Part shown: one piece after another, positions 6,436-58,275 of the stretch
How the letters are laid out: every line of letters begins with the position of its first letter
How positions within the stretch are numbered: the stretch's first letter is position 1
NCBI GenBank assembly: GCA_012646185.1
Contig: GCA_012646185.1_4706.1
Strand: one strand, 5' to 3'
Origin: a phage
DNA: 64,000 bases
Position numbers and translations under genes: made by a program
The notes under the pieces: generated by a model
The model's database searches: none
What the model was told of the DNA's origin: nothing
Seen by the model: the letters and a program-made list of their open reading frames with translations, nothing else

Positions 6436-6534
6436 CTGACTTATGTATCACGGTGCCGGATGAATGTCCGGTGCAATGAAACCATCCGCAACGTTGTCGT
6501 CAAGAATATCGTCCAACGAAGCAGCTACGGTAGT

Positions 6535-8757: not shown

Positions 8758-8906
8758 TGAAAGTATCCTTTACAGAATTAACTTATATAAGTCGGTCGAT
8801 AGACCATAGCGTACACGCGTGCATGCGCCACTATAGTATCAGTAAACACTTACCGTTATTGAGGTCGTGATACAACACTAAAAATGCCGCATAACTTTTC
8901 CCTACG

Positions 8907-38758: not shown

Positions 38759-38773
38759 AAAACACTCCGTTGA

Positions 38774-38804
38774 CCTAGGTGGAGGCCAATAACCTCCACC
38801 TAGG
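38774..38804. terminator. perfect 12-bp stem hairpin
   Basis: CCTAGGTGGAGG-CCAATAA-CCTCCACCTAGG between 38840..41632 and 35153..38758. Confidence 0.65.
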
Positions 38805-38839
38805 GTTGAACAACGCGTACGGTTATACGGTACGCACGA

Positions 38840-41632
38840 TTACGCTAATTTACCGAAACCGGCCTTCTGTAGTTTCTCGTTGATCAGTTTTGCTTCAGCG
38901 AAAACATAATCACGATACGCAGTGACTAATCCGTCCACCCGTGAACGCAAGGCTTCTTCGAAGCTATACCACGCAGCGATTTCACGAATCTGTGCGTTGA
39001 TATAATCAACGGTTGAGCGAAGCTCGGTTGCGTTTTCTTGCGGAATGGCTTTCACCTGGCGAGCAACGTCATTTAAACGACGGAACTGTGTTTCGATTTC
39101 TTTAAACTTACTGTCAGCAAGTTTGCTGAATTCGTCACCGGAACGGGTAAATAACAGATAGCTGTTGCCGTCAAGTGCGGTCGCTAACTGCTGAAGTACG
39201 TTGGTGTCCGGATACACAGGAGTACCGCTTTGCAATACTTTCTCACCGAATTCCGCGAAGTCCTTCGGCGGTAAGTGTGCAGACGTTGTCAATTCGTTGA
39301 AACGGAAAGTCAGCGAACTATCATACAACATCCGGTACGCTTCCATACCCTGTTTCATGGTACCGGCCAGGTTAGCCAGACGCGGAGCAATCTCGCCTTC
39401 TTTAGCGCGTTTCTGGTCTTCTAACGCCCCTTCGAGTTCTTTACACTGGTCGTTCAGATACACGATACGATCGGGACGCAGACGACGCATCTCACGAAGA
39501 ATGGTATCCAGCTTACCTTCCTGGAAATAACCTAACGTTAAAGACGTACACGCTTGCTGAAGACGATCGAAGACCGGTAAGGTTACCATCTCCTTACGGA
39601 TACCATCAACAATCGCAGAAACAGCCGAAAGTTTCTGTTCTGTAGTCAATGGAACATCAGAGGCCGACTTGCTGGGCGCACCAACAACGTTACGCATTGC
39701 GTCGGTATCCTCGGTTTTATCAACCTCTTTACGAACATGCTCATCAGGAACATAAACGTTAGCATTACGTTTCGCCTGCTTGATAGCATCGCTGGCCGCT
39801 TTTTCGGTGGCCGCTACGCTATCGGCACGTTTCTTCAAGAGTTCAATAATCCAGAGCACCAGACGACGAATCGCAGTGTAGGCTGTCGTGATGATGACGC
39901 CGATAACAGCCATCTTCATGATACCGAACGATTCCATGGTCGGCTCTAACGCTTGGTCTGGCATATACCGTTCACGCAGTTCCAGATAGATCTGCTCATC
40001 TGGTTTGCTGACCTCACCACGATGCGAAGTACGATAGATGGCTTCGTCAATCTCAACAAGATCTTTGCGGGCCTGGCGATCGGATTCTGTTAAGTAAGCA
40101 CAACCGGATACATCATCTTCGAAGCTTAAGAATTTGAAAAAGTCACTGACGTCGATCTTGATCTTCTTCGCTTCATTGTCAACGTTAATGAAATCCGTTT
40201 TACGAGACTGCTGTTGAATCTTAATATCCTTTATCGGTTTAAGCGCTTTGTCTTTTAATGCCTGCATGATCTGTTTCCAGCTGGCATCGCGTTCAAGAAC
40301 AAGGAAATAGTTCTTGAGTTCGAATGCGCGATAGCGGACAACAAGTTGTTCTACCTGGACATGAGCGAGTTGTACGTCCATCAGCCAACGCGACAGCGCA
40401 GAAACCAAACGGCTATACGCAAGCAGCGTCTGGTACGTCAGCTTCATGTGTTTCTCGTAGAGCTCAATGTCTCCGCCCTGGATGTCGGCTGTCGGGTTCA
40501 TTTCCTTCGTTGCTTTGAAGACTTGTTCGGCTTCATTCAGCATTTGCTCAAACTTGACTTCATTGAACGCGTTGAATGGTTCGGCCAGTTCGTTCATCCG
40601 ATCGTGTAGTTCGCGAACCCAAGCTTCTTTGTGATTACGAATGACCGCATCAGCGTGGAGTTCGGTTTGATGTTTCTGTACCCATTCTTCAATGATATCC
40701 GCAGCTGCAACAACACCTGTGTTGTCAGAAATCAATGGGATGACGTTAGAGAGCGTACCCGCACATGCTGGCGTTTTCCAATGATCATTAAGTGTGTTGC
40801 GGAACGTAATGATGTCCGTCATTGACGTAGTGATATCGAGGAACGTGTTACCGTTACGACTCATGCTTGTGATGTTTGTGGCAAACGTCTTTTGTTGTTC
40901 TACAACGAATGGAATCAACGCCATCAACCAATCAGCAATACACTGTGCTTTTTCTTTCAGGTTTTTGTCGGCGATTTCTTTGAGATTAATTGCGCCGCCG
41001 TACCCCGCAAGTTCGTTATACACATCGTTCAAGGTCATCTGCGCATCAAGCATTTCTTTGAAACGCGGATAATCTTCCCCTAACGCATCGATGATATCCT
41101 GGATAACGTCGTCGGTTGTAGCGATAAATTTCTTCGTGTCGACTTTAGATTTCCAGATTATTTTCACCGCTTCTTTCATAACGGTGAACATGATCTGCCA
41201 AATACGCTTAATAAGTTCCCAGACTTTCTTCGCACCATCGACAAACAGTTTAGAGATCTTGGCAACGAATCCTTCCTGCACTAACTCAACGCCGTTACGT
41301 GATGGGATTTCCGTGAAGAAAGCATCCGGCAGTTGTTTCGGGAATGCGTCACCAAGACGCATACGCAGTTCCGGTACATCAGCACGAGAAATACCGCGTG
41401 TTACTAATTGTTCGTGAAGACGAACGTTTTCTTCACCAGCAGCCACGAATTCATTAACGTCGAAGGAGACCATTGCTTCCTGATCTTCGGTGGTAACAAC
41501 GCTTGAACCGTCGCTGGTTTGGATGTCTTCGTCAGGGAACGCCATGAGCATACCGTGACGCATTTCAACCACTCCGTAATCGGTTGCTAAACCGAATTCG
41601 TTGTGGTCGGGAGTAATAACTGGGATACTCAT
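38840..41632 (-). CDS. large helical protein (930 aa), paralog-family member
   Basis: ATGA overlap with upstream gene; NGVELVQEGFVAKISKLF...KKVWELIKRIW near residue 115 matches the family motif. Confidence 0.8.
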   Translation of the reverse strand: MSIPVITPDHNEFGLATDYGVVEMRHGMLMAFPDEDIQTSDGSSVVTTEDQEAMVSFDVNEFVAAGEENVRLHEQLVTRGISRADVPELRMRLGDAFPKQLPDAFFTEIPSRNGVELVQEGFVAKISKLFVDGAKKVWELIKRIWQIMFTVMKEAVKIIWKSKVDTKKFIATTDDVIQDIIDALGEDYPRFKEMLDAQMTLNDVYNELAGYGGAINLKEIADKNLKEKAQCIADWLMALIPFVVEQQKTFATNITSMSRNGNTFLDITTSMTDIITFRNTLNDHWKTPACAGTLSNVIPLISDNTGVVAAADIIEEWVQKHQTELHADAVIRNHKEAWVRELHDRMNELAEPFNAFNEVKFEQMLNEAEQVFKATKEMNPTADIQGGDIELYEKHMKLTYQTLLAYSRLVSALSRWLMDVQLAHVQVEQLVVRYRAFELKNYFLVLERDASWKQIMQALKDKALKPIKDIKIQQQSRKTDFINVDNEAKKIKIDVSDFFKFLSFEDDVSGCAYLTESDRQARKDLVEIDEAIYRTSHRGEVSKPDEQIYLELRERYMPDQALEPTMESFGIMKMAVIGVIITTAYTAIRRLVLWIIELLKKRADSVAATEKAASDAIKQAKRNANVYVPDEHVRKEVDKTEDTDAMRNVVGAPSKSASDVPLTTEQKLSAVSAIVDGIRKEMVTLPVFDRLQQACTSLTLGYFQEGKLDTILREMRRLRPDRIVYLNDQCKELEGALEDQKRAKEGEIAPRLANLAGTMKQGMEAYRMLYDSSLTFRFNELTTSAHLPPKDFAEFGEKVLQSGTPVYPDTNVLQQLATALDGNSYLLFTRSGDEFSKLADSKFKEIETQFRRLNDVARQVKAIPQENATELRSTVDYINAQIREIAAWYSFEEALRSRVDGLVTAYRDYVFAEAKLINEKLQKAGFGKLA

Positions 41633-42069
41633 GCATTCTCTCCTTGCAGTGCGTTAGCGAAAGCCGTTGCAAGTTGTGCAACCAGTTTCGGATCAACGCC
41701 TTCGATAACGTCAGGCAGCCCTGCGGTTTCTTGGTCACGAACAGCGGAGGCTAATAACAGCATGGTTTCAGGTGCGGTTGGCTCATGCACCATGCGGTAA
41801 CGCAGGCACCAGAAGTAGCGAGCAACGTCTAACGCATCAGCCAGCCCAATAACCAGCACCTTGTTCAGCTTATCCAACCCTTCACGGATTTTAGGGAGAT
41901 GTTCACGAACGAAAATGCTATCTGCGGTCAGATCTTCTTTTTCAGCGAATACGGGCATGCTGTAACCAGCGATATAACCTGCGGCAATACTTAGCGCACG
42001 GGTCTGTTGTTCGGCTGGGAAATCACGTACCAGGTCTTTCAGCTGAACGGCGAAATCAGAAATATTCAT
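41629..42069 (-). CDS. hypothetical protein (146 aa)
   Basis: ORF with AAGGA 8 nt upstream. Confidence 0.7.
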   Translation of the reverse strand: MNISDFAVQLKDLVRDFPAEQQTRALSIAAGYIAGYSMPVFAEKEDLTADSIFVREHLPKIREGLDKLNKVLVIGLADALDVARYFWCLRYRMVHEPTAPETMLLLASAVRDQETAGLPDVIEGVDPKLVAQLATAFANALQGENA

Positions 42070-42102
42070 GTTAAATTCCTTTATAGTAGAAGGTGAATTA
42101 GG

Positions 42103-43413
42103 TTACGCGACGACAGAGTCGAGTTTCGCTGACACTTTGAACAGATCGTTGTTCATTGTGGAAGAAAGGACTTGTTGAATTTCTTCCTGTTTAACGGCTT
42201 TACGAACCCCAGGACGAAGGATAAGCGTAACCATCTGTGAAAAGGTACGATTATTGTTCATCGCACTCAGCGTTTCATCGATTGTTTTGATGGTATCCAG
42301 CGTCATGGAACGAACATCGCTTGGGATATCACGATCTTTCAAGCGTATAATTAAATCTTGTTTGATTTTACGGAATCGTTCCATGTCGTTATCGTAAATG
42401 CTGTATGTTGGATCTAACCAAACAGAAAGCGCGGTTACGGCCACAACAACCAACACACCGATAGCGCCAACAGAAGCTAAACCTATCGCCATCATAGAGG
42501 CTATAGTAGCATCCATGATGAAGGAGAGCCAGAACATCGTTTTGGACTTCATGGAGTTGGTGCCATAAAGCCGATACATTTTAGCAAGCCCGCTAACGAG
42601 ATACTCCCCACTACCGTGACGCGTAGCGAACTGATCAGCCATGAATTCGGAAGCAACGTCAGTGTATCGACCAGCATTGTTTACATTTCGTAACTGCATT
42701 GCTCTGTTAGACACGTAAACCGTGTACCAGACACTACCATCGTCTGAATCACTGATTTTGTCTACGTCAACGTTGGTATCCAACGTTTTGTTTAACGCTT
42801 TCGCCAGTTCGATACGTTTTACCTTATCGGTTGTTCCCAACAGTTCACGCTGTACGGTCATGATCGAGGCTTCGACACGAACCGTTTCTGATAATGTTTC
42901 AAGGAAAGTAAATGCGTGCCCGATTTCATGCAGCATTATGGCTGCTTTTTCTTCCGGAAGAAAGGGTTCTGTCGCTGTTAGCAGTTCATACGTGATGGCA
43001 GAACGAATCTTCAACTCCTCAAAGATACCGTAAACACGACCTTTTTCTAAATCGACGTAACCGACAGGTGCATCTTTAATCTTCTTAAGGAGTGCGACAC
43101 CATCAGCACCACGCATCCATAACCGATGATAGTCCGCCAGGATCGTGTTGTTTGTCGAAATATCCGGTGGGTACACGTAGGCGTTCATCTGGCCCATTTT
43201 CATGTCGACCGAGAATTCGATGTTCAACCCCGTATAGCGTTTAACCATCTCGGTTAAACGACCGTCCTTGAAAACGTTTAAAACCTCTTTTTTATCCAGT
43301 CCCTGTTTGCTTCTGAAGAACTCGGTCATTTCCTTGAACAAGGAACCATCTTGAAACTTGATGGCTTCCATCGTTAATTCGTCATGACCATACACGCGTT
43401 GTAGTAATGACAT
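42103..43413 (-). CDS. putative membrane-associated zinc metallopeptidase (HExxH)
   Basis: Motif AAIMLHEIGHAFTFLETLSE (HExxH plus downstream Glu) followed by a hydrophobic segment about 40 residues long (MFWLSFIMDATIASMMAIGLASVGAIGVLVVVAVTALSVWL). Confidence 0.55.
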   Translation of the reverse strand: MSLLQRVYGHDELTMEAIKFQDGSLFKEMTEFFRSKQGLDKKEVLNVFKDGRLTEMVKRYTGLNIEFSVDMKMGQMNAYVYPPDISTNNTILADYHRLWMRGADGVALLKKIKDAPVGYVDLEKGRVYGIFEELKIRSAITYELLTATEPFLPEEKAAIMLHEIGHAFTFLETLSETVRVEASIMTVQRELLGTTDKVKRIELAKALNKTLDTNVDVDKISDSDDGSVWYTVYVSNRAMQLRNVNNAGRYTDVASEFMADQFATRHGSGEYLVSGLAKMYRLYGTNSMKSKTMFWLSFIMDATIASMMAIGLASVGAIGVLVVVAVTALSVWLDPTYSIYDNDMERFRKIKQDLIIRLKDRDIPSDVRSMTLDTIKTIDETLSAMNNNRTFSQMVTLILRPGVRKAVKQEEIQQVLSSTMNNDLFKVSAKLDSVVA

Positions 43414-43634
43414 TGTACACTCTCTAAATTTACGTAAATTTAAGGGCTAATGGATCGGCTGGCCGCACCAATCACAATGTGTCCGCTGCTATGCAACGGC
43501 ATTCATAGAAATACCTTTTGACGGTAACATCACCCATCACACCCCAAGCAATAAGAGTGGTCGGTTAAAAACAACAGAACGTGGGGATGATATAGAAAAT
43601 CACCTTTTAACACTTATTACGAGTTTATCAAGCC
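43414..43634. promoter_or_regulatory. divergent intergenic region (strand switch, candidate promoters)
   Basis: 220-bp ORF-free spacer between the divergent starts of 42103..43413 and 43635..45134. Confidence 0.4.
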
Positions 43635-45134
43635 ATGAGCGAACAAGAACGAAAACCTAAGAAGAAACTGCTCGGTATTCAATGTCGACACATCAGCTAT
43701 AACGAAGCGAACGACGGCAGCAAGAACGACCTCATGATCGCAAAAGAGATCATGTTCTTTGATGACAATACGCAAGCGACGAACCTTCGCTTCTTTGAGA
43801 ATTACAAACGTCCGTTTTGGGTGACGGTAGAGAGTAAACGTAAGAACAAATATAAAAAGGAAAGCGAGAAGCTCTCGCATGTGCGTCGCTATGATGTCCG
43901 CCAAAGTGAACTGGTTGAAAAGATCAGTTCGGTGCTTTATAAAAGACGTGCTGACGATAACACCCGTTTACAGCAGCTTGCACGGAGTCCATACCTCTAC
44001 GGCACGGACGTTAGCGCCAGCTGTTATTTAAAAACCCAGTACAACACAAAATGGCCGGAATACGTCGATAAATTACCCGCTTCCATTGCCTGTTTCGATA
44101 TCGAAACCGACGTTGTCCATGGACATGGTAAGATCGTTTGTATGTCTATTACAATGGGATACAATGCGATACTTTGCTATACCAAGGACTTCGTTGGTCA
44201 TATTCCGAATGCGATTGAGAAAACCCATGAGAAGATTCGATATTACCTGGCCGAACGTCTGAATACCAAAGAAGATCCTCATGCGTTCGAAAAATATCAG
44301 TACGATGTGCGAATCGTAGAAAGTCCGGCACAAGCAGTCATCCAATGCATGCAGAAGGTTCACGAATGGCAGCCGGATTATCTCCTTGGCTGGAATATCG
44401 CGTTCGATATTCCGCGCATGCTCCAGGCACTGAACGAGGAAGGGTATCGTCCCGAGGATGTTTTCTCCGATCCTCGTGTACCCCCTAAGTATCGTATTGC
44501 TCGCTGGGTACCACCGAAGACCGACAAGGTATCTGCTTCAGGCCGTAAAACCAACCTTACCCTCGAGCAGACCTGGCCGATGTTTTATACGATGGCTACG
44601 TATCAGGTTATGGATGCGATGTGTGGTTATAAGTTCGTTCGTTTAGGAAGACCGGATGAGGGACGCTATTCACTCGATGCGGTGTTAGAGCGTAATAAAT
44701 GCCATACGAAATTAAAAGCGATTCCTGGTACAGAAGGGTTCACGGAGCTCGCCTGGCACGAAGAGATGCAAACGAACCATCAAATCGACTACGGCGTATA
44801 TAACCTTTGGGATAACCAAGGTATTGAGGCGTTGGACCAGAAAACAAAAGACTATTCGATGACCATCCCGATTCGTTTAGCGGCGTCGGATTTGAAAGAT
44901 TTCAGTTCCAACCCTAAACGTATCTGCGATAAACTTTTCTTCGTGTATCTTAACCGTGGGGAAGTCATGGGATGCACCGCCGACGACATGACCCAGGAAG
45001 AAGATAAGTGGGTTATCTCACGAACCGGACATATCGTCACATTACCATGCGATCTCATGGCGGACAACGGCATTCATCTCTTCTGGGATATGCCTAATTT
45101 AAGGAGCTATATTCGATTATTTGTTGCGGATTAA
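43635..45134 (+). CDS. DEDDy 3'-5' exonuclease domain protein, family B DNA polymerase N-terminal-like
   Basis: Exo I ACFDIETD, Exo II LLGWNIAFDIPRML, Exo III GRYSLDAV in canonical order and spacing; no polymerase palm motifs seen downstream. Confidence 0.65.
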   Translation: MSEQERKPKKKLLGIQCRHISYNEANDGSKNDLMIAKEIMFFDDNTQATNLRFFENYKRPFWVTVESKRKNKYKKESEKLSHVRRYDVRQSELVEKISSVLYKRRADDNTRLQQLARSPYLYGTDVSASCYLKTQYNTKWPEYVDKLPASIACFDIETDVVHGHGKIVCMSITMGYNAILCYTKDFVGHIPNAIEKTHEKIRYYLAERLNTKEDPHAFEKYQYDVRIVESPAQAVIQCMQKVHEWQPDYLLGWNIAFDIPRMLQALNEEGYRPEDVFSDPRVPPKYRIARWVPPKTDKVSASGRKTNLTLEQTWPMFYTMATYQVMDAMCGYKFVRLGRPDEGRYSLDAVLERNKCHTKLKAIPGTEGFTELAWHEEMQTNHQIDYGVYNLWDNQGIEALDQKTKDYSMTIPIRLAASDLKDFSSNPKRICDKLFFVYLNRGEVMGCTADDMTQEEDKWVISRTGHIVTLPCDLMADNGIHLFWDMPNLRSYIRLFVAD

Positions 45135-45165
45135 CCTTCGTTCTGTAAAAACTTACCGATATATA

Positions 45166-45211
45166 GAAATTACTGTGAGATACCAAAGGTACTCGTAAGT
45201 TTAGTAATTTC
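45166..45211 (+). other. hairpin (9-bp stem GAAATTACT/AGTAATTTC, 28-nt loop) between exonuclease gene and HNH gene
   Basis: Read directly from sequence; could be a terminator or part of an intron 5' structure. Confidence 0.4.
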
Positions 45212-45227
45212 TGAGCGGTAGGTAAAT

Positions 45228-46364
45228 ATGTTGGAACATCTTGAACATTTAGACAATGAATACTTAAATTTCACCAATCGTCGTTATCGTATCTTCGAAG
45301 ACGGTACACTTTACGATTACAAAGAGAATTGTAAAGTACCTGTTATAATAGAAGATAACAACTCTTACGTTATTATCGATTGGTATCGTGGGGTTGGTAA
45401 ATACGAATTGGGGATGATCATGCTTACAGCATTTGATCGCATCCACATTCCTAACTATCTTTACGATGAAATTGAATCGTTGTTTATTGATAACGACCCG
45501 ACGAACTTTTCGTATAGTAACCACATCTATCGTTTCCGTAATGGACCGCTGGCTGTGGAAGGGTATCCGGGATATTACTACATCCCGTTTGCCACGTACT
45601 ATGCGCTAAATGAACAAGGTGAATGTTTAAGTCTTTTGTCTGGGGAAGGTATAACGTGGACAATGACGCAGCAAAACGGTACGCGGCGTCCCGGCTATCG
45701 ATACAGAAAGGTAACACCTGATAGCGGTTTTACGGCTCAGCTGTATCGTCATCGAGCGATGATGTTGACGTTTCGTCGTTACGACGCAAGCGTTGTGGAA
45801 ATGACCGTTAATCACAAGAACGGTATTAAAGGCGATGATTGGCTGGATAACCTGGAATGGGCAACCTACAAGGAAAACAACAATCATGCGCGTATAAACG
45901 GTTTATGTGACGGCAAAGCGAAACCTATCAAGATCTTTGATTATAATCGTCATACCGAACGTCATTTCAAGAGCATCGCTGAGGCGGAACGTGCGTATCC
46001 ACACGTAGCAAAAGGACGTTTCAAATGGTGGGTTGAAAATCCACCGAAACGTATACCTGAATGTAACCTCTACATCAAACATGCGTTCGATAATACTCCG
46101 TGGCCTGAATGGAAACTGGGTGATGAACGACGTATTGAAGATGTAGCGGGTATTCCGATTATCGCCCTTAACATGGTTACAGGCGAGAAACGAGTGTATT
46201 CATCGGTTACAGCTGCGGGTAAGGATACGAAAACAAGTTGGATAACAGTACGACGTCACTGTGATAAGCGTGTCGTTCCTGTTAAACAAGCATGGTGTTT
46301 CCGTTATGCTGACGACGTCAAAAACATGCCTGAGTTAACTTCCCTACCAACAATCGAACAGTAA
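45228..46364 (+). CDS. HNH homing endonuclease
   Basis: HNH signature TVNHKNGIKGDDWLDNLEWATYKENNNHA; C-terminal repeated DNA-binding-like modules (SIAEAERAYPHVAKGRFKWW, SVTAAGKDTKTSWITVRR); gene visibly more AT-rich than its surroundings. Confidence 0.85.
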   Translation: MLEHLEHLDNEYLNFTNRRYRIFEDGTLYDYKENCKVPVIIEDNNSYVIIDWYRGVGKYELGMIMLTAFDRIHIPNYLYDEIESLFIDNDPTNFSYSNHIYRFRNGPLAVEGYPGYYYIPFATYYALNEQGECLSLLSGEGITWTMTQQNGTRRPGYRYRKVTPDSGFTAQLYRHRAMMLTFRRYDASVVEMTVNHKNGIKGDDWLDNLEWATYKENNNHARINGLCDGKAKPIKIFDYNRHTERHFKSIAEAERAYPHVAKGRFKWWVENPPKRIPECNLYIKHAFDNTPWPEWKLGDERRIEDVAGIPIIALNMVTGEKRVYSSVTAAGKDTKTSWITVRRHCDKRVVPVKQAWCFRYADDVKNMPELTSLPTIEQ

Positions 46365-46875
46365 CGATAACAGGTCCCCCTACTTGTAATGAGTGGGTGA
46401 ACTCTCTTTAATTGCTGGAAACCTTTAATGCCCCTCCACACCACAACGCAATCCGAAAGGGTAAACGTGATGGTTGTCGAAAGACAGAAAAAAGTTGGAG
46501 GGGATTACCTAAGCTGAAATAAAAGCCGTTACTTTCTGGATATGGAAAGAGTCTAACGGTGCTAAGGGTCCTGCTAGAAATAAGGTAACCGTAGCAGCGA
46601 AGACCCTACGGACTGTCGTGACCGACTCGATGAGTTGGCGTGGTTAACACGGACAGGCTACGGGTAACGTTCAACGACCATCCGGTTGCGCGGAGTAGGA
46701 GAATTAGGATGTTCTCCGAAAAGGGAGAAGTCGGTCGAGGTGTTGTAGAAACACCGTTGCTTTGCTTCGCAAACATAAGACAGGCTAAGATATGGTCTAT
46801 ATTAAATGTAATACTATGATGTATAGAATTTAATGGCTCGATATTAGCAGTTCATATCCAAATGGGCAGATCCTG
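46365..46875 (+). ncRNA. structured non-coding region with group I intron catalytic-core-like elements
   Basis: About 510 nt without a credible ORF; R-like GTTCAACGACCA (46669..46680) and S-like AAGATATGGTC (46788..46798) with complementary GACCAT/ATGGTC halves (P7-like); several local hairpins and a long-range CCCCTCCA/TGGAGGGG complement. Confidence 0.35.
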
Positions 46876-47091
46876 TTGAATCTATCCAGAGCATGTGTTT
46901 TTCGTGAGCTCTCACGCATTGAGGGCGTCTCTGACTACCAATTCAGGAAGCTAGGTATCAACTTTATTACCGGAGGTAAAACGAACGCTGTAGACTTCTG
47001 TAGAATCGTTTATAAAGCACCATCGATGTTTGAGCTCTTAGAACATTTCGATGCGACGCGTCCAAAAGAGGAAGCGCGGACCATCGAATGA
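46876..47091 (+). CDS. doubtful small ORF (71 aa, TTG start); possible 3' exon or spurious
   Basis: Frame open from 46834; no SD; no recognisable motif. Confidence 0.2.
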   Translation: MNLSRACVFRELSRIEGVSDYQFRKLGINFITGGKTNAVDFCRIVYKAPSMFELLEHFDATRPKEEARTIE

Positions 47092-47141
47092 TTCAAGTAG
47101 GTTGATCCTCGTTTAACAAAAAAGAAAACACATGCGAAGCT

Positions 47142-47169
47142 CCTCCCCCTGGCGGAAGCCGGAGGGAGG
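47142..47169. terminator. hairpin with GGAA tetraloop
   Basis: CCTCCCCCTGGC-GGAA-GCCGGAGGGAGG, 11 of 12 pairs; downstream of 47178..47663. Confidence 0.6.
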
Positions 47170-47177
47170 GGTGAGGT

Positions 47178-47663
47178 TTATGCGCGTTCGTTACCAACCG
47201 TTACTTTGTAGTCAGCGTCGGTTAAGAATATAGACAGGAATCCATGTTCTTTGCAAATCTGACTAAGGATGTCAGCAATGATTTCGTTGATCATCGGCTT
47301 GTTTGCAAGGGCATAGATGTACCCGGGTGTAAAAGAAAGTGCGTGATTGATCATAGGCTCATGAGAAGCCAAGATAAGGATCACGTGATGCTTCCCATCG
47401 TCGGTAACGACCGCTTGCGTAGACACGAAGAAATCAGTGAAGCAGCAGCGATCACAGGCTTTAGGTATATACAAGTCACCCAGAGCTTCGTTACGTGCTT
47501 TTACGTGTGTTTCAGGGGTGATGCTGCTAAGTTGATCTTCAGCGAGATCCAAGACATCCTCAATCGTTTTAAGAATAGCGTTGCGGAAATCCTCACGGTA
47601 GAATGGGATGATATCACGATCGTTCATGTAATCGCCGGATTCGATAGTAAAGTTGATGTTCAT
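47178..47663 (-). CDS. small hypothetical protein (161 aa), accessory island
   Basis: ORF with AGGAG 6 nt upstream. Confidence 0.7.
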   Translation of the reverse strand: MNINFTIESGDYMNDRDIIPFYREDFRNAILKTIEDVLDLAEDQLSSITPETHVKARNEALGDLYIPKACDRCCFTDFFVSTQAVVTDDGKHHVILILASHEPMINHALSFTPGYIYALANKPMINEIIADILSQICKEHGFLSIFLTDADYKVTVGNERA

Positions 47664-47773
47664 TGAATGCTCCTAGTGGTTATGTCGATTGATTGATGTA
47701 TTGATTTATGTTTGATGGGGTATACTTGAAACTACAAATAAGGCTCTTGGCGTTGCTGTTATGGTTCAGTTCT

Positions 47774-48226
47774 TTATCCCTTGTTGGATTCGTCAATATA
47801 CTTGGTGTCGTAAGACAAATGCTGAATTAATTTTCTAGGTCTGATGAATATACGACATGTGATAAACACATCAGGATTGTATTGTTCCACGCAACGTCCG
47901 AAGGCTCGTTTTGCGGCGTGACGCATCAACACTAATTCCCGATCGTTCATCTCATCATCAAATTCGATGTGTATCGTGATTTTATCGGGAAATAAATAGA
48001 TAGAGTAATCGCCACCAATACCGCCGTCGTCAAAACGATAATCGTTGTGGTAATGGTGAAGTTTACCTTCGTGTATCGTCTGGTACCACCCGACGTTACT
48101 ATCAAGGCCCATACCCAGGCGTCCGAATGCCTGATTAATAATATCTTCGACGACGGATGCGGGTGTGGGGCCATTGAACAATCTATCCAGACGTTTTTTC
48201 ATCGATTTGTCGTTTTTCATGTTCAT
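47774..48226 (-). CDS. small hypothetical protein (150 aa), accessory island
   Basis: ORF between hairpin 48255..48290 and the 47664..47773 spacer. Confidence 0.65.
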   Translation of the reverse strand: MNMKNDKSMKKRLDRLFNGPTPASVVEDIINQAFGRLGMGLDSNVGWYQTIHEGKLHHYHNDYRFDDGGIGGDYSIYLFPDKITIHIEFDDEMNDRELVLMRHAAKRAFGRCVEQYNPDVFITCRIFIRPRKLIQHLSYDTKYIDESNKG

Positions 48227-48254
48227 TGTTTCTTTTCCTGTGTAGTCGGTATAC

Positions 48255-48290
48255 AGCCCTTCCCCGGCCTTGGTGGCTAGGGAAGGGGCT
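48255..48290. terminator. GC-rich hairpin
   Basis: AGCCCTTCCCC...GGGAAGGGGCT. Confidence 0.5.
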
Positions 48291-48301
48291 ATGCTACGTT
48301 G

Positions 48302-48700
48302 TTATGCTTCGCAATCAGCTGAAGGCGTCGCGCCTTTCTTACCGGCGATACGCCAAATCCGACACGCTGGGTAATGGTTAACCTCTAGAGAGCAAGGAAT
48401 GTTATATTTCTCTTCCAGCGCATAAAGACATTTCGTTAGCTGCTCCAGCGCGTTCTCGTCGTGTCGTAACGCGTGGTGGCCTAATCGATGTTGGTCGTTC
48501 TTTATATACGCCTCGAAGAGAACATGTTGGCGATGTACGCTGACGTTTACAGCCTCGAGTATAGCTTGGTCGAGCATACGACTAAAGCACATCAACGAGT
48601 CAGATACGTTTTCTCGCTTAACCAGATCGATCATGGCGGGAATATACGAATGGTCGATGTTATCGATGACCGCTTTAGCGACGGAATCAGCAACGTTCAT
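48302..48700 (-). CDS. small hypothetical protein (132 aa), tandem paralog of 48736..49131
   Basis: Shared blocks VKAV.DNIDH...MID..K.E, EKYNIP.SLEVN..PA with its neighbour. Confidence 0.7.
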   Translation of the reverse strand: MNVADSVAKAVIDNIDHSYIPAMIDLVKRENVSDSLMCFSRMLDQAILEAVNVSVHRQHVLFEAYIKNDQHRLGHHALRHDENALEQLTKCLYALEEKYNIPCSLEVNHYPACRIWRIAGKKGATPSADCEA

Positions 48701-48735
48701 CTTTTAATCCCTAGTTTGTTATTGATCACGTATAT

Positions 48736-49131
48736 TTACTCTTTGACGTCAGTTGTCGTTTCGACATGCTTCTCACTACTGACGTACCAGAGCAGGTACG
48801 CTGGGAAAAGATTGACCTCTAAGCTAAATGGGATATTGTATTTCTCTTCCATTTTACAGAGATGTTCTTTAAGTAAATTTCTCGCGTCTCTGTCACCACG
48901 AACAGAGTGCCAGTCTAGTTCTTTGTTCTCCTTTACCAGGACCTCTACGATGATACGTTGCTCGTGAACCTCGGTTTTCACAGTGAAAAGTAAATCGCTG
49001 CTATCAAAACGGGTAAAACGAATGTATGAACCAGGTGTTTTTTCTTGTTTAATAATATCGATCATGGTAGAAATGCGCGGATGATCGATGTTGTCGTTAA
49101 CAGCTTTAACGATGGATTCTACAATGCTCAT
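48736..49131 (-). CDS. small hypothetical protein (131 aa), tandem paralog of 48302..48700
   Basis: See paralog; ATGA overlap with the upstream micro-ORF. Confidence 0.7.
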   Translation of the reverse strand: MSIVESIVKAVNDNIDHPRISTMIDIIKQEKTPGSYIRFTRFDSSDLLFTVKTEVHEQRIIVEVLVKENKELDWHSVRGDRDARNLLKEHLCKMEEKYNIPFSLEVNLFPAYLLWYVSSEKHVETTTDVKE

Positions 49132-49226
49132 TTTTTATCCTTAATGTTATCGATATTGACGAGTTCATCAATACGGCACTGTTGGTTGAATTCGATTAAT
49201 CGTTGAACTTTATCTTTGATAGACAT
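49128..49226 (-). CDS. candidate micro-ORF (32 aa, MSIKDKVQRLIEFNQQCRIDELVNIDNIKDKK)
   Basis: Not in the ORF track (below 60 aa); starts 2 nt after the stop of 49229..49687 and ends in an ATGA overlap with 48736..49131. Confidence 0.3.
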   Translation of the reverse strand: MSIKDKVQRLIEFNQQCRIDELVNIDNIKDKK

Positions 49227-49228
49227 GA

Positions 49229-49687
49229 TTACCCATTAGCTCCTTCTTCGTCTGGAGAGTACTCCATTGTGTAGAATTCATAACCATCGGAAAACTTGAG
49301 TGTTAATGTAATAGGGAAATCGCACGGCGTAGCTGATTTCGTAAATGCGTTATTAGCAACATCTGCCAACCGACGTATAGCATCAGTCCCGCTGACGCTG
49401 AATGGTAGTTGTATGTTGATAAGGATACGATGCTTGTAAACATAGAAAACAACGGTACTGTCAAGATAGACGCTATGGAACGGTATTGTTGGGATGCGTT
49501 CCACGATGGTAAAATACGTCCCGTCATTATCGCTATGTCCCACCGACCAAATATCGGATTTGCGTAGATTTTGTTTGAGAGATTCGATGCTTCGAGTGAC
49601 GGTATCAGCAACAGGCGTGACGTAAGCGTCTTTATGCGAGTCGAAAAGTTCGTTGACGTTAGATTCGAATGAAAACGTTGTTGCCAT
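49229..49687 (-). CDS. small hypothetical protein (152 aa), paralog of 49753..50253
   Basis: C-terminal similarity ITLTLKFSDGYEFYTMEYSPDEE versus VILTINGHDGSGLFEFHYDPDNE. Confidence 0.7.
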   Translation of the reverse strand: MATTFSFESNVNELFDSHKDAYVTPVADTVTRSIESLKQNLRKSDIWSVGHSDNDGTYFTIVERIPTIPFHSVYLDSTVVFYVYKHRILINIQLPFSVSGTDAIRRLADVANNAFTKSATPCDFPITLTLKFSDGYEFYTMEYSPDEEGANG

Positions 49688-55142: not shown

Positions 55143-55616
55143 ATGCCAGTTTCATCCAAACCAAGAAAAAAATCCGTAGGAAACCCTAAAGCTCAGGAAA
55201 CAACAGCAATTCGTTGGGACGAGTTACGTGAACCTATCGAAAACTGCGAATTGTTATTAGGTACCCTGGGTGCAGCTATTTACCAAGCGACGCAACCCTG
55301 TCGTTTACGATTAACCCAAAACAAACGTGATGAGTTCGTTGCGTTATCAACAAGCACGAATAAAGATCTGACCGAACTTCAAACCGAGTTGACGACGATC
55401 AAGAACTCCATTACGCCGATGTACGGTAAAGAAGTTGATGAACAAAGTATTCTGTTACAGTACAACTACGGGATGTCGTTAATGAACATCCTGGAACGCG
55501 CATCCGATATTCTGCGTCCTGACGTTGCACGCCTAAGCCAACTGCGTGTCGAAGGGATGGAGAACCAGATCCGATTCGCTAACAGTGTTAAATCTCAAGG
55601 AGCCACCGAAGCATGA
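55143..55616 (+). CDS. hypothetical protein (157 aa)
   Basis: ORF after the divergent spacer; ATGA overlap with the next gene. Confidence 0.65.
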   Translation: MPVSSKPRKKSVGNPKAQETTAIRWDELREPIENCELLLGTLGAAIYQATQPCRLRLTQNKRDEFVALSTSTNKDLTELQTELTTIKNSITPMYGKEVDEQSILLQYNYGMSLMNILERASDILRPDVARLSQLRVEGMENQIRFANSVKSQGATEA

Positions 55617-57277
55617 GCGAACAAGAAAAAGAAGTCGTGACGAATCAGGAAGCCACCGAACGTTCAGAGTCGTCCGTTGAAACTACGATTCCGGCAAGTT
55701 CCGAGCCGGTTGGTTCCGCACAGCAGGAAAGTAAAGACGAAGTAGTGGCTCCAGAAGCAACCCGTGAAGAAGAACCATCACATCCACCGCTGGTCGATTT
55801 CTCGAAGGCAACGATACGTTTCCAATGCGAAGACATTCGTCCTAAGAGCCCGAAGAAAACAAAACGCCAGCCGTTGGTGTTACCGTTATATTCTCCGCGT
55901 GTACAGACAACGTATTACCGGGAATACATCAACGAAGCGATGGATACCGTACAAGCCATTGTCGCTCAACGCGGTAAACCGACAGACGAACAGTTTGATA
56001 AATTCAGTAAAGCGGTGGTGCAATCGGTTGCTGATGGACAATACCATCCGCGCGGCCCAGCTCACGATCGCGCGTTGGAACGTAAGGGCAGTCAGTGGAC
56101 TAACGTACCCGTAGACTCATCGGGTGTTGGTCGCGTTATTCCTGGCATCCCGCAACCGAACCATATTCCTGATGATGTCGAAGCGCCGCTGACAGGAACC
56201 GATGCGATCTATTTTGCTATCCGTAATACGAAATCAGGTGCGCCTGCGGTAATGCCGTTATGGCATAGCGGTATTAAGCTGCAGTTCAATCCGCCGTCAA
56301 ATGAACGTGTTGCAATTATGCACGAACGTATTGCCCGCGATAAAATCCTGGGTGGACGTGATAGCACCGGTTTCCTGTTTTCGGCAACCTCGATTATCAC
56401 CATGAAGCACGCAATCGAATTAGCGTTAGAATGCTGTTACATGGCCAACGTACCGAACCTGGATATCCAGCGTTTGAAAGACATTATCCCGGTTACCGAT
56501 GTTCCAGCGTTATTACTGAACGTGTTGGTAACCATGTACCCGTACGGATATCCTTACGTACAGACCTGCTATCAGAATCCAGAAACCTGCGACTATCGTG
56601 TTGAAGATACCGTAAGCTTTGCGAAACTCTATCAAGTTGACAACAGCGCGATAACCAAACGTATGCGACAGATCATGACCGAAGGTCCGGTCATGACCGA
56701 TGAACTTTTGCGTGAGTATGCAAACGAACTGGGTGAAACAAACTCCCGTACGCTGGATCTGTCCGACAACGGTTCTGTTATCATTGAACTTGAAGTACCG
56801 AAGATTTCACGACAAATTGCCATGGGCGAACGCTGGTTAAGCGATACGCTGGAAGATCTGCGTGATATTCTATCGCGTCCGTCAATGACCGAAGAAGAGC
56901 GCGATCGTGTTATTCGTGAACGTCAGTTCTATAGCTGGATGCGTCAGTATGATGCATGGATCAAATCGATGCATGTGTCAGTAAACGGCACCATGCGTCG
57001 TGTAAGCGATGCGGATACAGCAACGGTATTAGCGCAGCTGTCTCGTGATAGCGATCTTCGTGAACGCTATATCGATGGGTTGATGCAATTCATCGGTGAT
57101 TCGACGATTGCGCTCGCAGCGATGCCTGCCTGGAAATGTCCGAAATGTAATGCCGATATTGCTGACAATCTACGTGACCAGAAATACTACGATCTGATTG
57201 CTTTGGATGTACCCCAGCTTTTTTTTACCCTAAACTCCGTCCAATCTCTTCAGGAGGGGATGGACGCGGTATTCTAA
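55613..57277 (+). CDS. hypothetical protein (554 aa) with C-terminal CPKC zinc-ribbon-like motif
   Basis: Long ORF; T8 run at 57219..57226 near the 3' end; the -1 frame is open from there to 57699. Confidence 0.75.
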   Translation: MSEQEKEVVTNQEATERSESSVETTIPASSEPVGSAQQESKDEVVAPEATREEEPSHPPLVDFSKATIRFQCEDIRPKSPKKTKRQPLVLPLYSPRVQTTYYREYINEAMDTVQAIVAQRGKPTDEQFDKFSKAVVQSVADGQYHPRGPAHDRALERKGSQWTNVPVDSSGVGRVIPGIPQPNHIPDDVEAPLTGTDAIYFAIRNTKSGAPAVMPLWHSGIKLQFNPPSNERVAIMHERIARDKILGGRDSTGFLFSATSIITMKHAIELALECCYMANVPNLDIQRLKDIIPVTDVPALLLNVLVTMYPYGYPYVQTCYQNPETCDYRVEDTVSFAKLYQVDNSAITKRMRQIMTEGPVMTDELLREYANELGETNSRTLDLSDNGSVIIELEVPKISRQIAMGERWLSDTLEDLRDILSRPSMTEEERDRVIRERQFYSWMRQYDAWIKSMHVSVNGTMRRVSDADTATVLAQLSRDSDLRERYIDGLMQFIGDSTIALAAMPAWKCPKCNADIADNLRDQKYYDLIALDVPQLFFTLNSVQSLQEGMDAVF

Positions 57278-57369: not shown

Positions 57370-57699
57370 ATGAAACTGAACATCGAAATGGGTATTGCGT
57401 ACGATACCATGTTTGGCTTGTACGATCGTGTTAACGACTGGACGCCGTTGAAATGGGTGGCTCAGCATCCCGCTGAAGATCCCTGGGACAGATTAGGAAT
57501 TAAACCCTTAATCGAGGATTATGTCCGATTCGGTATTAAAGAGTTCATGACGCTGGATGCGTTTTTAAAAGCACCGTATCCTTACGCGCAAACGGTACTC
57601 AAAATCGCACAAGACGAACTGCGGAAACGTAGTGCGGTACTGGACGACGATGAGGACAAGTTACGACGAGAAGAAGAACGTTTACGAAACGGAAAATAA
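57370..57699 (+). CDS. hypothetical protein (109 aa) or frameshift extension of 55613..57277
   Basis: First ATG at 57370; the frame is open upstream to 57178 and overlaps the upstream gene. Confidence 0.5.
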   Translation: MKLNIEMGIAYDTMFGLYDRVNDWTPLKWVAQHPAEDPWDRLGIKPLIEDYVRFGIKEFMTLDAFLKAPYPYAQTVLKIAQDELRKRSAVLDDDEDKLRREEERLRNGK

Positions 57700-57700
57700 A

Positions 57701-58210
57701 ATGGCGAGATTTACCAGTTTGATTGGGTTGGATATTTGGGAAACACCGGCTGACGTTCGGGTTATTCCTGTCAACACCGTCGGTGTGATGGGACGTGGTC
57801 TTGCCAAACAGGCAGCTGATCGTGTGCCCGGTCTTCTTGAAGCGTACCGTAAGCAATGTCAAGATGGGTTTAAGGTGGGCGAAGTCGTATCGTATCAGCA
57901 AGGCGAGAACGATCAGCTCACTTACGTGTTGTTTCCATCAAAATCGGATTGGCGTGAAAGAACACGACGCGAGTATATCGTTAACGGTTTACTGGCGTTA
58001 AAAGCATGGTTACTGGAGCTTCAGTTCGAAAGAGACGGCTTCTCATACCACCGTCCGGCTGAACCGCTGATCGTTGCAATTCCTCCGGTCGGTTCTGGTT
58101 GCGGTAATATCGGTTACGGACAATCCGAAACAATCCAGCCTCAATGGGTACGCACACAAATCAAACAGTATCTTGCCACCGTACCAAACGTTCATTTCTA
58201 CTTGTTCTAA
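57701..58210 (+). CDS. macrodomain (ADP-ribose-processing) protein
   Basis: Motifs VIPVNTVGVMGRGLAKQAA and IVAIPPVGSGCGNIGYG fit the macro fold signature; start at ATG 57701 directly after the upstream stop. Confidence 0.55.
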   Translation: MARFTSLIGLDIWETPADVRVIPVNTVGVMGRGLAKQAADRVPGLLEAYRKQCQDGFKVGEVVSYQQGENDQLTYVLFPSKSDWRERTRREYIVNGLLALKAWLLELQFERDGFSYHRPAEPLIVAIPPVGSGCGNIGYGQSETIQPQWVRTQIKQYLATVPNVHFYLF

Positions 58211-58226
58211 TGCAAAGGTAACATAA

Positions 58227-58258
58227 CCCTCCTCCAACCCGTAAGGGAAGGAGGAGGG
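58227..58258. terminator. bidirectional hairpin between convergent gene blocks
   Basis: CCCTCCTCC-AA-CCC-GTAA-GGG-AA-GGAGGAGGG, identical to the 11204 copy. Confidence 0.65.
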
Positions 58259-58275
58259 CTTATGCTGTTATGCTA

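What the first reader, a model, noticed from the sequence alone, without database searches (positions are those of the whole stretch)
57701..58210. Phage-encoded macrodomain protein
The motifs PVNTVGVMGRGLA and IAIPPVGSGCGNIGYG match the macrodomain fold, which binds or hydrolyses ADP-ribose derivatives. In a virulent phage this suggests reversal of ADP-ribosylation, either countering a host ADP-ribosyltransferase defence or regulating the phage's own modifications. It is co-transcribed with small unknown genes.
Basis: partly seen in the sequence, partly recalled or inferred. Interest (0 to 1): 0.6.

Follow-up and report, generated by a model that had tools for sequence, protein, structure and literature searches.

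The report
Known anti-DarT macrodomain (AdfM) of Goslar-like phage
This gene encodes a small enzyme that very probably strips a toxic ADP-ribose tag, added by the bacterial DarTG2 defence system, off the phage's DNA. The same protein family (AdfM) was described experimentally in related nucleus-forming jumbo phages in 2026, so the call is correct but not new.

Summary
Window 57701..58210 (+) is a 169-aa ORF carrying both quoted motifs, with one letter dropped in the second. The window is a 96-97% relative of the E. coli nucleus-forming jumbo phage Goslar, and the protein is 97% identical to Goslar gp83.

It is a stand-alone macrodomain of the DarG2 class:
- PADLOC DarG scores 3e-22 and NCBIfam antitoxin_DarG 4e-23, both over the N-terminal macro half only.
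- The family profile hits DarG macrodomains in the PDB at 1e-42, against 5e-14 for TARG1 and 7e-5 for Poa1p.
- The AlphaFold2 model (pLDDT 87) matches Thermus DarG best (TM 0.85-0.88).
- Both DarG catalytic residues are kept (N25, K81).
- It lacks the DarT-binding C-terminal domain and has no darT neighbour.

Morgan et al. 2026 (Cell Rep) named this chimallivirus family AdfM. They showed that PhiKZ gp104 (31% identical, E=3e-24) removes DarT2 ADP-ribose from DNA, enters the phage nucleus and protects against DarTG2. They list Goslar gp83 as a member but did not test it.

Activity and localisation of this protein remain inferred. Novelty: already known. Interest: low to moderate.

The parts
57701..58210 (+). 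CDS of the stand-alone DarG2-like macrodomain protein (AdfM orthologue; 169 aa plus stop)
57767..57805 (+). First Gly-rich ADP-ribose-binding loop, PVNTVGVMGRGLA. It contains N25 (57773-57775), the equivalent of Thermus DarG N22 and PhiKZ AdfM N23.
   Evidence: Alignments. Morgan et al. report that N23A reduces PhiKZ AdfM activity.
57941..57943 (+). Codon of K81 in the motif FPSKSDW, the equivalent of the catalytic Lys80 of Thermus DarG and K78 of PhiKZ AdfM
   Evidence: Fig. 1 legend; invariant column
58028..58066 (+). Insertion of about 13 residues (ERDGFSYHRPAEP, aa 110-122) relative to bacterial DarG macrodomains. PhiKZ AdfM has an unrelated insertion at the same place.
   Evidence: Alignment A2. 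pLDDT dips to 65 in the block covering aa 111-120.
58070..58120 (+). Second Gly-rich (diphosphate-binding) loop, IVAIPPVGSGCGNIGYG. P128, G131, G133 and G135 are invariant in the family alignment.
58115..58138 (+). Insertion of 8 residues specific to the Goslar clade (GQSETIQP, aa 139-146), directly after loop 2
   Evidence: Alignments A1 and A2. The adjacent low-confidence segment is aa 135-141.
58222..58264 (.). GC-rich hairpin between the convergent genes; candidate bidirectional terminator without a U-tract
   Evidence: dG -31 kcal/mol, z = -5.0. Annotated as a putative terminator in Goslar. Not picked up by the canonical terminator scan.
57370..57699 (+). Upstream 109-aa gene of unknown function (Goslar gp082 orthologue, 100% identical). 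Its stop lies one nucleotide before the AdfM ATG.
55143..57277 (+). Two further co-directional upstream genes (157 aa and 554 aa; gp080 and gp081 orthologues, unknown function). Together with the 109-aa gene and AdfM they form a four-gene block that is conserved in a distant Goslar-like contig.

Best explanation
The gene encodes the AdfM (anti-DarT factor macro) of a Goslar-like nucleus-forming jumbo phage. AdfM is an orphan, antitoxin-like DNA ADP-ribosyl glycohydrolase derived from the macrodomain of the bacterial DarG2 antitoxin.

Proposed mechanism: when a host DarTG2 system is triggered, the DarT2 toxin ADP-ribosylates thymidines in single-stranded phage DNA (TNTC-type motifs), which blocks replication and packaging. 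The phage enzyme binds the ADP-ribose through its two Gly-rich loops and hydrolyses the thymine-ribose bond using the conserved Lys (K81) with Asn (N25), restoring unmodified DNA. It has no DarT-binding domain, so it acts only enzymatically and not by sequestering the toxin. By analogy with PhiKZ, PhiPA3 and Asesino it is probably imported into the phage nucleus by the PicA pathway.

Shown here: the sequence, fold, class and catalytic-residue assignment; orthology to Goslar gp83; homology to PhiKZ gp104. Inferred: enzymatic activity, substrate, nuclear localisation and protection phenotype of this particular protein.
For: - Identity to known members. It is 97% identical (164/169) to Goslar gp83, which Morgan et al. 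2026 list as an AdfM in their Fig. 1. It is 31% identical over its full length (E = 3e-24) to PhiKZ gp104, which they characterised.
- Experiments on the homologue. PhiKZ gp104 removes DarT2-made ADP-ribose from DNA in vitro and N23A weakens this. It rescues DarT2 toxicity, its deletion sensitises PhiKZ and PhiPA3 to DarTG2 by 3-6 logs, and it localises to the nucleus.
- DarG-specific similarity. PDB phmmer gives DarG Taq 5e-15 and Mtb 2e-11. The family profile gives 7e-42, 9e-42 and 5e-35 for three DarG structures, against 5e-14 for TARG1 and 7e-5 for Poa1p. PADLOC DarG scores 2.7e-22 and NCBIfam DarG 3.8e-23, both restricted to the macro half.
- Structure. AF2 pLDDT is 86.8, and the top four Foldseek hits are all DarG (E 5e-14, TM 0.85-0.88), followed by TARG1.
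- Catalytic residues. N25 and K81 are invariant in the family alignment.
- Bacterial relatives. The longer relatives (about 290-400 aa) sit next to Pfam DarT genes in at least 13 of about 25 loci.
- Purifying selection. dN/dS is 0.08 against Goslar.
- Relevance to this host. DarTG2 works as a phage defence in E. coli, and another E. coli phage (T4) needs a macrodomain protein to resist it. Goslar has an essential PicA importer.
Against: - Nothing was measured for this protein or for Goslar gp83; the paper only aligns it.
- Identity to the characterised PhiKZ enzyme is only 31%. It is no closer to PhiKZ AdfM (79.7 bits) than to bona fide bacterial DarG (79.0 bits).
- The Goslar clade carries two insertions next to the ADP-ribose-binding loop 2, modelled with low confidence, which could change substrate range.
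- Nuclear import signals are species-specific surface patches with no motif, so localisation cannot be read from the sequence.
- The gene neighbourhood is not shared with PhiKZ.
Confidence: 0.8

Rival explanations
1. It is a macrodomain hydrolase with a different or broader substrate. Candidates are protein-linked (Glu/Asp) mono-ADP-ribose as for TARG1, ADP-ribosylated RNA, O-acetyl-ADP-ribose, or ADP-ribose-1''-phosphate (the Poa1p-like 'phosphatase' given in the Goslar CDD note and in PHROG 335). DarT2-modified DNA would not be its main target.
For: Goslar's own annotation cites Macro_Poa1p_like, and PHROG 335 is labelled 'phosphatase'. TARG1 and Poa1p appear among the fold and profile hits. 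Clade-specific insertions flank loop 2. Macrodomain classes are often promiscuous in vitro (general knowledge of the family).
Against: Similarity to DarG macrodomains exceeds that to TARG1 by about 28 orders of magnitude in E-value and that to Poa1p by about 37. The DarG catalytic Lys and Asn are both kept. The closest characterised homologue acts on DarT2-modified DNA in vitro and in vivo. The 'phosphatase' labels are legacy Appr-1-p names, not tests.
Confidence: 0.1
2. It reverses or tunes ADP-ribosylation carried out by the phage's own ADP-ribosyltransferase (a phage-internal writer/eraser pair).
For: Some phages do carry both halves: Thermus phage phiMa has a DarT homologue directly upstream of its macro gene. 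T4-type phages encode ARTs (general knowledge).
Against: No ART or DarT Pfam family occurs among the 54 proteins of the window or in the immediate neighbours. A tblastn with one bacterial DarT found no match in Goslar. In PhiKZ the phenotype of the deletion depends entirely on host DarTG2.
Confidence: 0.04
3. It is a non-catalytic ADP-ribose or nucleotide binder, for example a sponge for ADP-ribose-derived immune signals.
For: Macro folds bind ADP-ribose derivatives generally. Loop 2 is modified by an insertion.
Against: The catalytic Lys and Asn and all Gly-loop residues are conserved under purifying selection. The homologue is enzymatically active.
Confidence: 0.03

Closest known systems
AdfM (anti-DarT factor macro) of chimalliviruses: PhiKZ gp104, PhiPA3 gp108, Asesino gp217, Goslar gp83 (Morgan et al. 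2026, Cell Rep, PMC13309987)
   Same: Stand-alone macrodomain of 160-170 aa of the DarG2 class, encoded by a nucleus-forming jumbo phage. Same N-terminus, same catalytic Asn and Lys, same Gly loops. It is 97% identical to the listed member Goslar gp83 and 31% identical to the characterised PhiKZ gp104.
   Different: Neither this protein nor Goslar gp83 has been assayed or localised. The genomic neighbourhood differs from PhiKZ. There is a Goslar-clade-specific 8-residue insertion after loop 2 and a different sequence in the insertion after the long helix.
DarG antitoxin of DarTG2 toxin-antitoxin systems (Thermus aquaticus 5M31/5M3E, M. tuberculosis 5M3I, Thermosipho 7OMU; NCBIfam NF048014)
   Same: Same macrodomain subclass, fold (TM 0.85-0.88) and catalytic residues, and by inference the same chemistry: removal of ADP-ribose from thymidine in ssDNA.
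   Different: Lacks the C-terminal DarT-binding domain (only profile positions 7-146 of 338 are matched; 82 bits against a cut-off of 250). No adjacent darT. Encoded by a phage, so it serves as counter-defence rather than self-immunity.
T4 Tk.4, independently named AdfM (HIDEN-SEQ preprint, bioRxiv 10.1101/2025.11.20.689424)
   Same: A phage macrodomain protein that protects an E. coli phage from DarTG2.
   Different: Only 25% identity over 114 aa (28.9 bits), and it lacks the FP[ST]K lysine. It is a different macrodomain subclass in a phage without a nucleus.
AdfN (T4 30.3, NADAR domain) and the inhibitors AdfA and AdfB
   Same: The same arms race: phage factors that neutralise DarT.
   Different: AdfN has an unrelated fold and acts on DarT1 guanine-ADP-ribose. 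AdfA and AdfB inhibit DarT directly rather than erasing the mark.
Human TARG1/OARD1 (4J5S and related entries)
   Same: Next-closest solved fold after DarG; the same ALC1/TARG1/DarG-like macro class with a catalytic lysine.
   Different: 15-18% identity and a much weaker profile score (5e-14). It is a eukaryotic protein known mainly as a protein de-ADP-ribosylase.

Membership tests
Macrodomain (Pfam PF01661) | Score above the Pfam gathering threshold | tested here: met
   25.8 bits against a cut-off of 22, E = 1.1e-5, aa 23-141
Macrodomain (Pfam PF01661) | Three-layer alpha/beta/alpha macro fold with two Gly-rich ADP-ribose-binding loops | tested here: met
   AF2 pLDDT 86.8; 182 PDB hits at E <= 1e-3, and all 50 listed are macrodomains or macro-fold proteins. 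Loops GVMGRGLA and GSGCGNIG.
DarG2-class macrodomain | Closest to DarG macrodomains rather than to other macro classes | tested here: met
   Profile against PDB: DarG 7e-42, 9e-42 and 5e-35; TARG1 5e-14; Poa1p 7e-5. Foldseek ranks 1-4 are all DarG. PADLOC DarG 2.7e-22.
DarG2-class macrodomain | Catalytic Lys (Taq K80) and Asn (Taq N22) present | tested here: met
   K81 and N25 align to them and are invariant in A1
DarG antitoxin (NCBIfam NF048014, equivalog) | Full-length match above the curated cut-off, including the C-terminal DarT-binding domain | tested here: not met
   82.3 bits against a cut-off of 250. Only profile positions 7-146 of 338 are covered, and the protein ends at 169 aa.
DarG antitoxin (NCBIfam NF048014, equivalog) | Encoded next to a darT toxin gene | tested here: not met
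   Neighbours have no DarT or ART hit. A tblastn with one bacterial DarT found no match in Goslar.
AdfM of chimalliviruses (Morgan et al. 2026) | Stand-alone DarG2-like macrodomain encoded by a chimallivirus, homologous to PhiKZ gp104 | tested here: met
   The window matches Goslar at 96-97% over most of its length, with one ~10-kb stretch at 86%, and carries PhiKZ-type capsid and virion genes. 31% identity, E = 3e-24, full length to gp104. 97% to Goslar gp83, which is listed as an AdfM.
AdfM of chimalliviruses (Morgan et al. 2026) | Removes DarT2-made ADP-ribose from DNA | not testable with these tools
   Shown only for PhiKZ gp104
AdfM of chimalliviruses (Morgan et al. 2026) | Imported into the phage nucleus (PicA pathway) | not testable with these tools
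   Shown for PhiKZ, PhiPA3 and Asesino. The import surface (PhiKZ aa 77-95) has no transferable motif. Goslar does have PicA.
AdfM of chimalliviruses (Morgan et al. 2026) | Protects the phage from DarTG2 | not testable with these tools
   Shown for PhiKZ and PhiPA3 deletion mutants
T4 Tk.4-type 'AdfM' | Orthology to Tk.4 | tested here: not met
   25% identity over 114 aa, 28.9 bits; Tk.4 lacks the FP[ST]K lysine
Poa1p-like ADP-ribose-1''-phosphate phosphatase (Goslar CDD note; PHROG 335 label) | Closest similarity to Poa1p-type macrodomains | tested here: not met
   Poa1p structures score 7e-5 against 7e-42 for DarG and rank 18 or lower in Foldseek. Poa1p catalytic residues were not examined.

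The most novel reading that the evidence does not exclude
The Goslar-clade AdfM is as distant from PhiKZ AdfM as from bacterial DarG, and it has two clade-specific insertions beside the ADP-ribose-binding loop 2. It could therefore be an independently captured DarG macrodomain whose insertions confer something new. One possibility is a widened substrate range, for example other ADP-ribosylated bases or RNA. Another is that the insertions form the Goslar-specific nuclear-import surface.
Probability: 0.1. Interest if true: 0.45.

Novelty: already known. Interest (0 to 1): 0.25.

Why it matters
AdfM shows that the phage nucleus is not a sufficient shield against DNA-modifying defences, and that jumbo phages add a stolen antitoxin enzyme as a second layer. 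For this window the value is in annotation and practice:
- It assigns a specific, testable function to a gene that the original GenBank record of Goslar (MK327938.1) labels 'hypothetical protein' and RefSeq 'macro domain-containing protein', and that carries a 'phosphatase' label in PHROGs.
- It corrects a probable start-codon error in the RefSeq annotation of Goslar gp083.
- It predicts that Goslar-like phages, which are candidates for therapy against E. coli and Salmonella, resist DarTG2-carrying strains.

It does not open a new question. The family, its mechanism and the membership of the Goslar orthologue are published.

Tried and rejected
- **Conserved partner genes.** I looked for a partner gene shared with PhiKZ. 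Around gp104, no window neighbour has a PhiKZ homologue. The tightly coupled upstream gp82 has homologues in Noxifer and PhiPA3 that lie about 36-43 kb away from their macro genes. There is therefore no conserved two-gene module outside the Goslar lineage.
- **A phage-encoded ADP-ribosyltransferase.** None was found in the 54 window proteins. A tblastn with one bacterial DarT found no match in Goslar.
- **Promoters and terminators.** The canonical sigma-70 promoter and rho-independent terminator scans gave fewer sites than shuffled controls and nothing at the gene. Chimallivirus polymerases are not covered by that scan.
- **Equivalence with T4 Tk.4 ('AdfM').** Rejected: it is a different macro subclass.
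- **Predicting nuclear import from sequence.** Rejected, because the PhiKZ recognition region has no motif and is species-specific.
- **Canonical DarTG context of bacterial relatives.** I expected the closest bacterial relatives to be mostly canonical DarTG. Only about a third of the 80 loci had long DarG-like proteins; the rest are stand-alone macrodomains of unknown context. The motif-based retrieval (PVNT[VR]G[VA]MG) biases this sample.

Full report
**Observation.** Window 57701..58210 (+) is an intact ORF of 169 codons plus TAA, beginning MARFTSLIGL. PVNTVGVMGRGLA is present exactly at aa 23-35. The second quoted motif has one residue dropped: the real sequence is IVAIPPVGSGCGNIGYG, aa 124-140.

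**What the window is.** A 2-kb piece around the gene matches only Escherichia phage vB_EcoM_Goslar in the phage collection, at 97% identity. The whole window is collinear with Goslar 36871-99218 at about 96-97% identity. The exceptions are a more divergent stretch and two indels.

Pfam hits among 54 window proteins are PhiKZ-type major capsid, internal head proteins, tail tube, head-tail joining proteins, a divergent DnaB and similar families. This is therefore a mostly virion-gene region of a Goslar-like chimallivirus, that is, a nucleus-forming jumbo phage. The protein is 164/169 identical to Goslar gp83.

**What the protein is.**
- Pfam Macro passes its threshold only modestly: 25.8 bits against 22.
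- Class-specific models are much stronger. PADLOC DarG scores 2.7e-22 (profile positions 8-143 of 329) and NCBIfam antitoxin_DarG 3.8e-23 (positions 7-146 of 338).
- The closest solved sequences are the DarG macrodomains of Thermus aquaticus (5e-15) and M. tuberculosis (2e-11).
- A profile of the protein and 13 relatives hits these and the Thermosipho DarTG at 7e-42, 9e-42 and 5e-35. A wide gap follows to TARG1 (5e-14) and Poa1p (7e-5).
- An AlphaFold2 model (pLDDT 86.8, pTM 0.85) is confident everywhere except one loop. Foldseek ranks the four DarG entries first (E 5e-14 to 4e-11; TM normalised to the target 0.85-0.88 for the three isolated macrodomain structures), followed by TARG1.
- The two residues that define DarG catalysis are present as N25 and K81 (motif FPSKSDW) and are invariant in the family alignment. 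In Thermus DarG they are N22 and K80, and in PhiKZ gp104 they are N23 and K78, as given in the legend of Fig. 1 of Morgan et al..
- The protein ends where the macrodomain ends. It has no DarT-binding C-terminal domain, scores far below the DarG equivalog cut-off (82 against 250 bits) and has no darT neighbour.

It is therefore an orphan DarG2-type macrodomain, not a DarG.

**Independent support from bacterial relatives.** A genome scan returned 80 bacterial loci with relatives at 27-42% identity. About 25 of these encode long proteins of roughly 290-400 aa. Clustering of their neighbours followed by Pfam and PADLOC scans showed that at least 13 are flanked by DarT (PF14487). DarT lies upstream in the canonical order or downstream, and in several downstream cases it is fused to a TIR domain. 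This macro clade is thus genetically tied to DarT.

**Comparison with what is known.** Morgan et al. 2026 (Cell Rep; PMC13309987) describe exactly this family as AdfM, 'anti-DarT factor macro'. Their findings:
- PhiKZ gp104 removes ADP-ribose from a DarT2-modified TNTC oligonucleotide, and N23A weakens this.
- It rescues DarT2 toxicity.
- It localises to the phage nucleus, as do the PhiPA3 and Asesino homologues.
- Its deletion makes PhiKZ and PhiPA3 sensitive to DarTG2 by 3-6 logs, with ADP-ribosylated phage DNA and a packaging defect.

Goslar gp83 (YP_009820768.1) appears in their Fig. 1 alignment as an AdfM, but no experiment on it is reported. It is the only paper in the library that mentions Goslar gp83. 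The window protein aligns end to end with PhiKZ gp104 at 31% identity, E = 3e-24.

A separate preprint gives the same name, AdfM, to T4 Tk.4, which protects T4 from DarTG2 in E. coli K-12. That protein is only 25% identical over 114 residues and lacks the catalytic-lysine motif, so it belongs to a different macro subclass. It does show, however, that DarTG2 is a real threat to E. coli phages and that a macrodomain can answer it.

**Mechanism, and what is inferred.** The most likely function is enzymatic erasure of DarT2-made thymidine ADP-ribosylation on replicating phage DNA. This probably happens inside the phage nucleus after PicA-dependent import.
- The class, fold and catalytic residues are shown here.
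- Activity, substrate, localisation and phenotype are inferred from the 31%-identical PhiKZ enzyme and from DarG.
- Goslar has an essential PicA. The PhiKZ gp104 import determinant (aa 77-95) is a species-specific surface without a motif, so localisation cannot be predicted from sequence.
- The gene is under purifying selection relative to Goslar: 18 synonymous and 5 non-synonymous changes, dN/dS 0.08.

**Anatomy and context.** The gene is the last of four co-directional genes of 157, 554, 109 and 169 aa, and its ATG follows the upstream stop by one nucleotide. A strong hairpin (58222-58264, -31 kcal/mol, z = -5) separates it from convergent genes. Goslar's annotators marked it as a putative terminator.

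The block gp77-gp82 plus AdfM is conserved in a distant Goslar-like metagenomic contig, where AdfM is 47% identical. It is not conserved in PhiKZ. The upstream gp82 family is not linked to the macro gene in Noxifer or PhiPA3. Co-transcription is plausible but not demonstrated.

The RefSeq start of Goslar gp083 (186 aa, overlapping gp082 by 50 nt) is probably 17 codons too far upstream. The MA start matches PhiKZ gp104 and the distant relatives.

**Differences from the characterised members.** Relative to bacterial DarG, the protein has an insertion of about 13 residues after the long helix; PhiKZ has an unrelated insertion at the same site. It also has a Goslar-clade-specific 8-residue insertion directly after the second Gly loop, which overlaps and adjoins the only stretches the model predicts with low confidence (aa 111-120 and 135-141).

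By BLAST score it is no closer to PhiKZ AdfM (79.7 bits) than to a bona fide DarG with adjacent DarT (79.0 bits). In a library of 1.84 billion representatives, only its own cluster scores below 1e-30, while 2,882 representatives score at or below 1e-3. This leaves room for independent capture or altered specificity. Nothing here requires either.

**Rivals.**
- A different substrate (TARG1-like, Poa1p-like 'phosphatase', RNA) is disfavoured by the large gap in profile scores and by the conserved DarG residues.
- A role in a phage-internal writer/eraser pair finds no writer. The part of the genome outside the window was checked only by one DarT tblastn.
- A non-catalytic binder is unlikely given the conserved catalytic residues.

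**Verdict.** The feature is an orthologue of an already named member of a published, experimentally characterised family. Novelty: already known. Interest: low to moderate.

Noticed in passing
window 57650-57700; Goslar NC_048170.1 92868-92918: RefSeq annotates Goslar gp083 with a start 17 codons upstream, overlapping gp082 by 50 nt. Homologue N-termini (PhiKZ MAEF; 47%-identical relatives starting MA directly after the upstream stop) indicate that the ATG at 57701 is the real start.
   Followed up: yes
window 48302-48700 and 48736-49131 (minus strand): Two tandem paralogous small genes (132 and 131 aa; both begin M..(V/A)(D/E)S(V/I)(A/V)KAV.DNIDH and share EEKYNIP.SLEVN) lie in an insertion of about 930 nt that is absent from Goslar (window 48310-49243 against Goslar 84419-84447). 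Function unknown.
   Followed up: partly
window 35153-38758 (minus strand) and 38460-48291: The orthologue of Goslar gp064 is 1201 aa here against 930 aa in Goslar, and 36788-38460 has no nucleotide match. The next ~10 kb is only 86% identical to Goslar, against 96-97% elsewhere. This suggests a mosaic or fast-evolving segment. The 1201-aa protein has no Pfam hit.
   Followed up: partly
window 6460-8760 (+) opposite 6535-8757 (-): The major capsid gene (740 aa, PhiKZ_MCP, E = 4.5e-216) is shadowed over its full length by a stop-free antisense ORF of 766 codons. This is probably a codon-bias artefact, but its length is unusual.
   Followed up: no
phage records, e.g. phiEco32 EU330206.1 34905-35231, SU10, Paul, SGF2, vB_EcoM_DE15: DarG-like macrodomain genes related to this one (30-38% identity) also occur in E. 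coli and Shigella phages of about 54-80 kb (the phiEco32/SU10 group and others), which by my own knowledge do not build a nucleus. Most are labelled 'Appr-1-p processing' or hypothetical. They are candidate AdfM-type counter-defence genes outside chimalliviruses.
   Followed up: partly
Thermus phage phiMa MH673674.1 26358-26771 and 27047-27466: This 52-kb phage carries a DarT homologue (41.5% identical to a bacterial DarT, E = 7e-24) directly upstream of a DarG-like macro gene. That is a complete DarTG-like module in a phage, and it was the only DarT hit in 50,697 phage records.
   Followed up: partly
L055:3909-5333, and L073, L074, L077, L078 (Anaerolineae/Chloroflexota MAGs): Proteins of 473-477 aa that fuse an N-terminal TIR domain (PF13676, 2e-26) to a DarT domain (PF14487, 3e-14) are encoded just downstream of ~300-aa DarG-like macro proteins. 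This is a TIR-DarT variant of DarTG.
   Followed up: partly
P0001: A protein 99% identical to the window protein is deposited as a hypothetical protein of Salmonella enterica serovar Muenchen on an 809-bp contig. This suggests that a Goslar-like phage closer to this window than Goslar itself was present in a Salmonella sequencing sample.
   Followed up: no
window 58222-58264: A strong GC-rich hairpin (-31 kcal/mol, z = -5) without a U-tract lies between convergent genes and is missed by the canonical terminator scan. It is typical of the hairpin-only terminators annotated throughout Goslar.
   Followed up: yes
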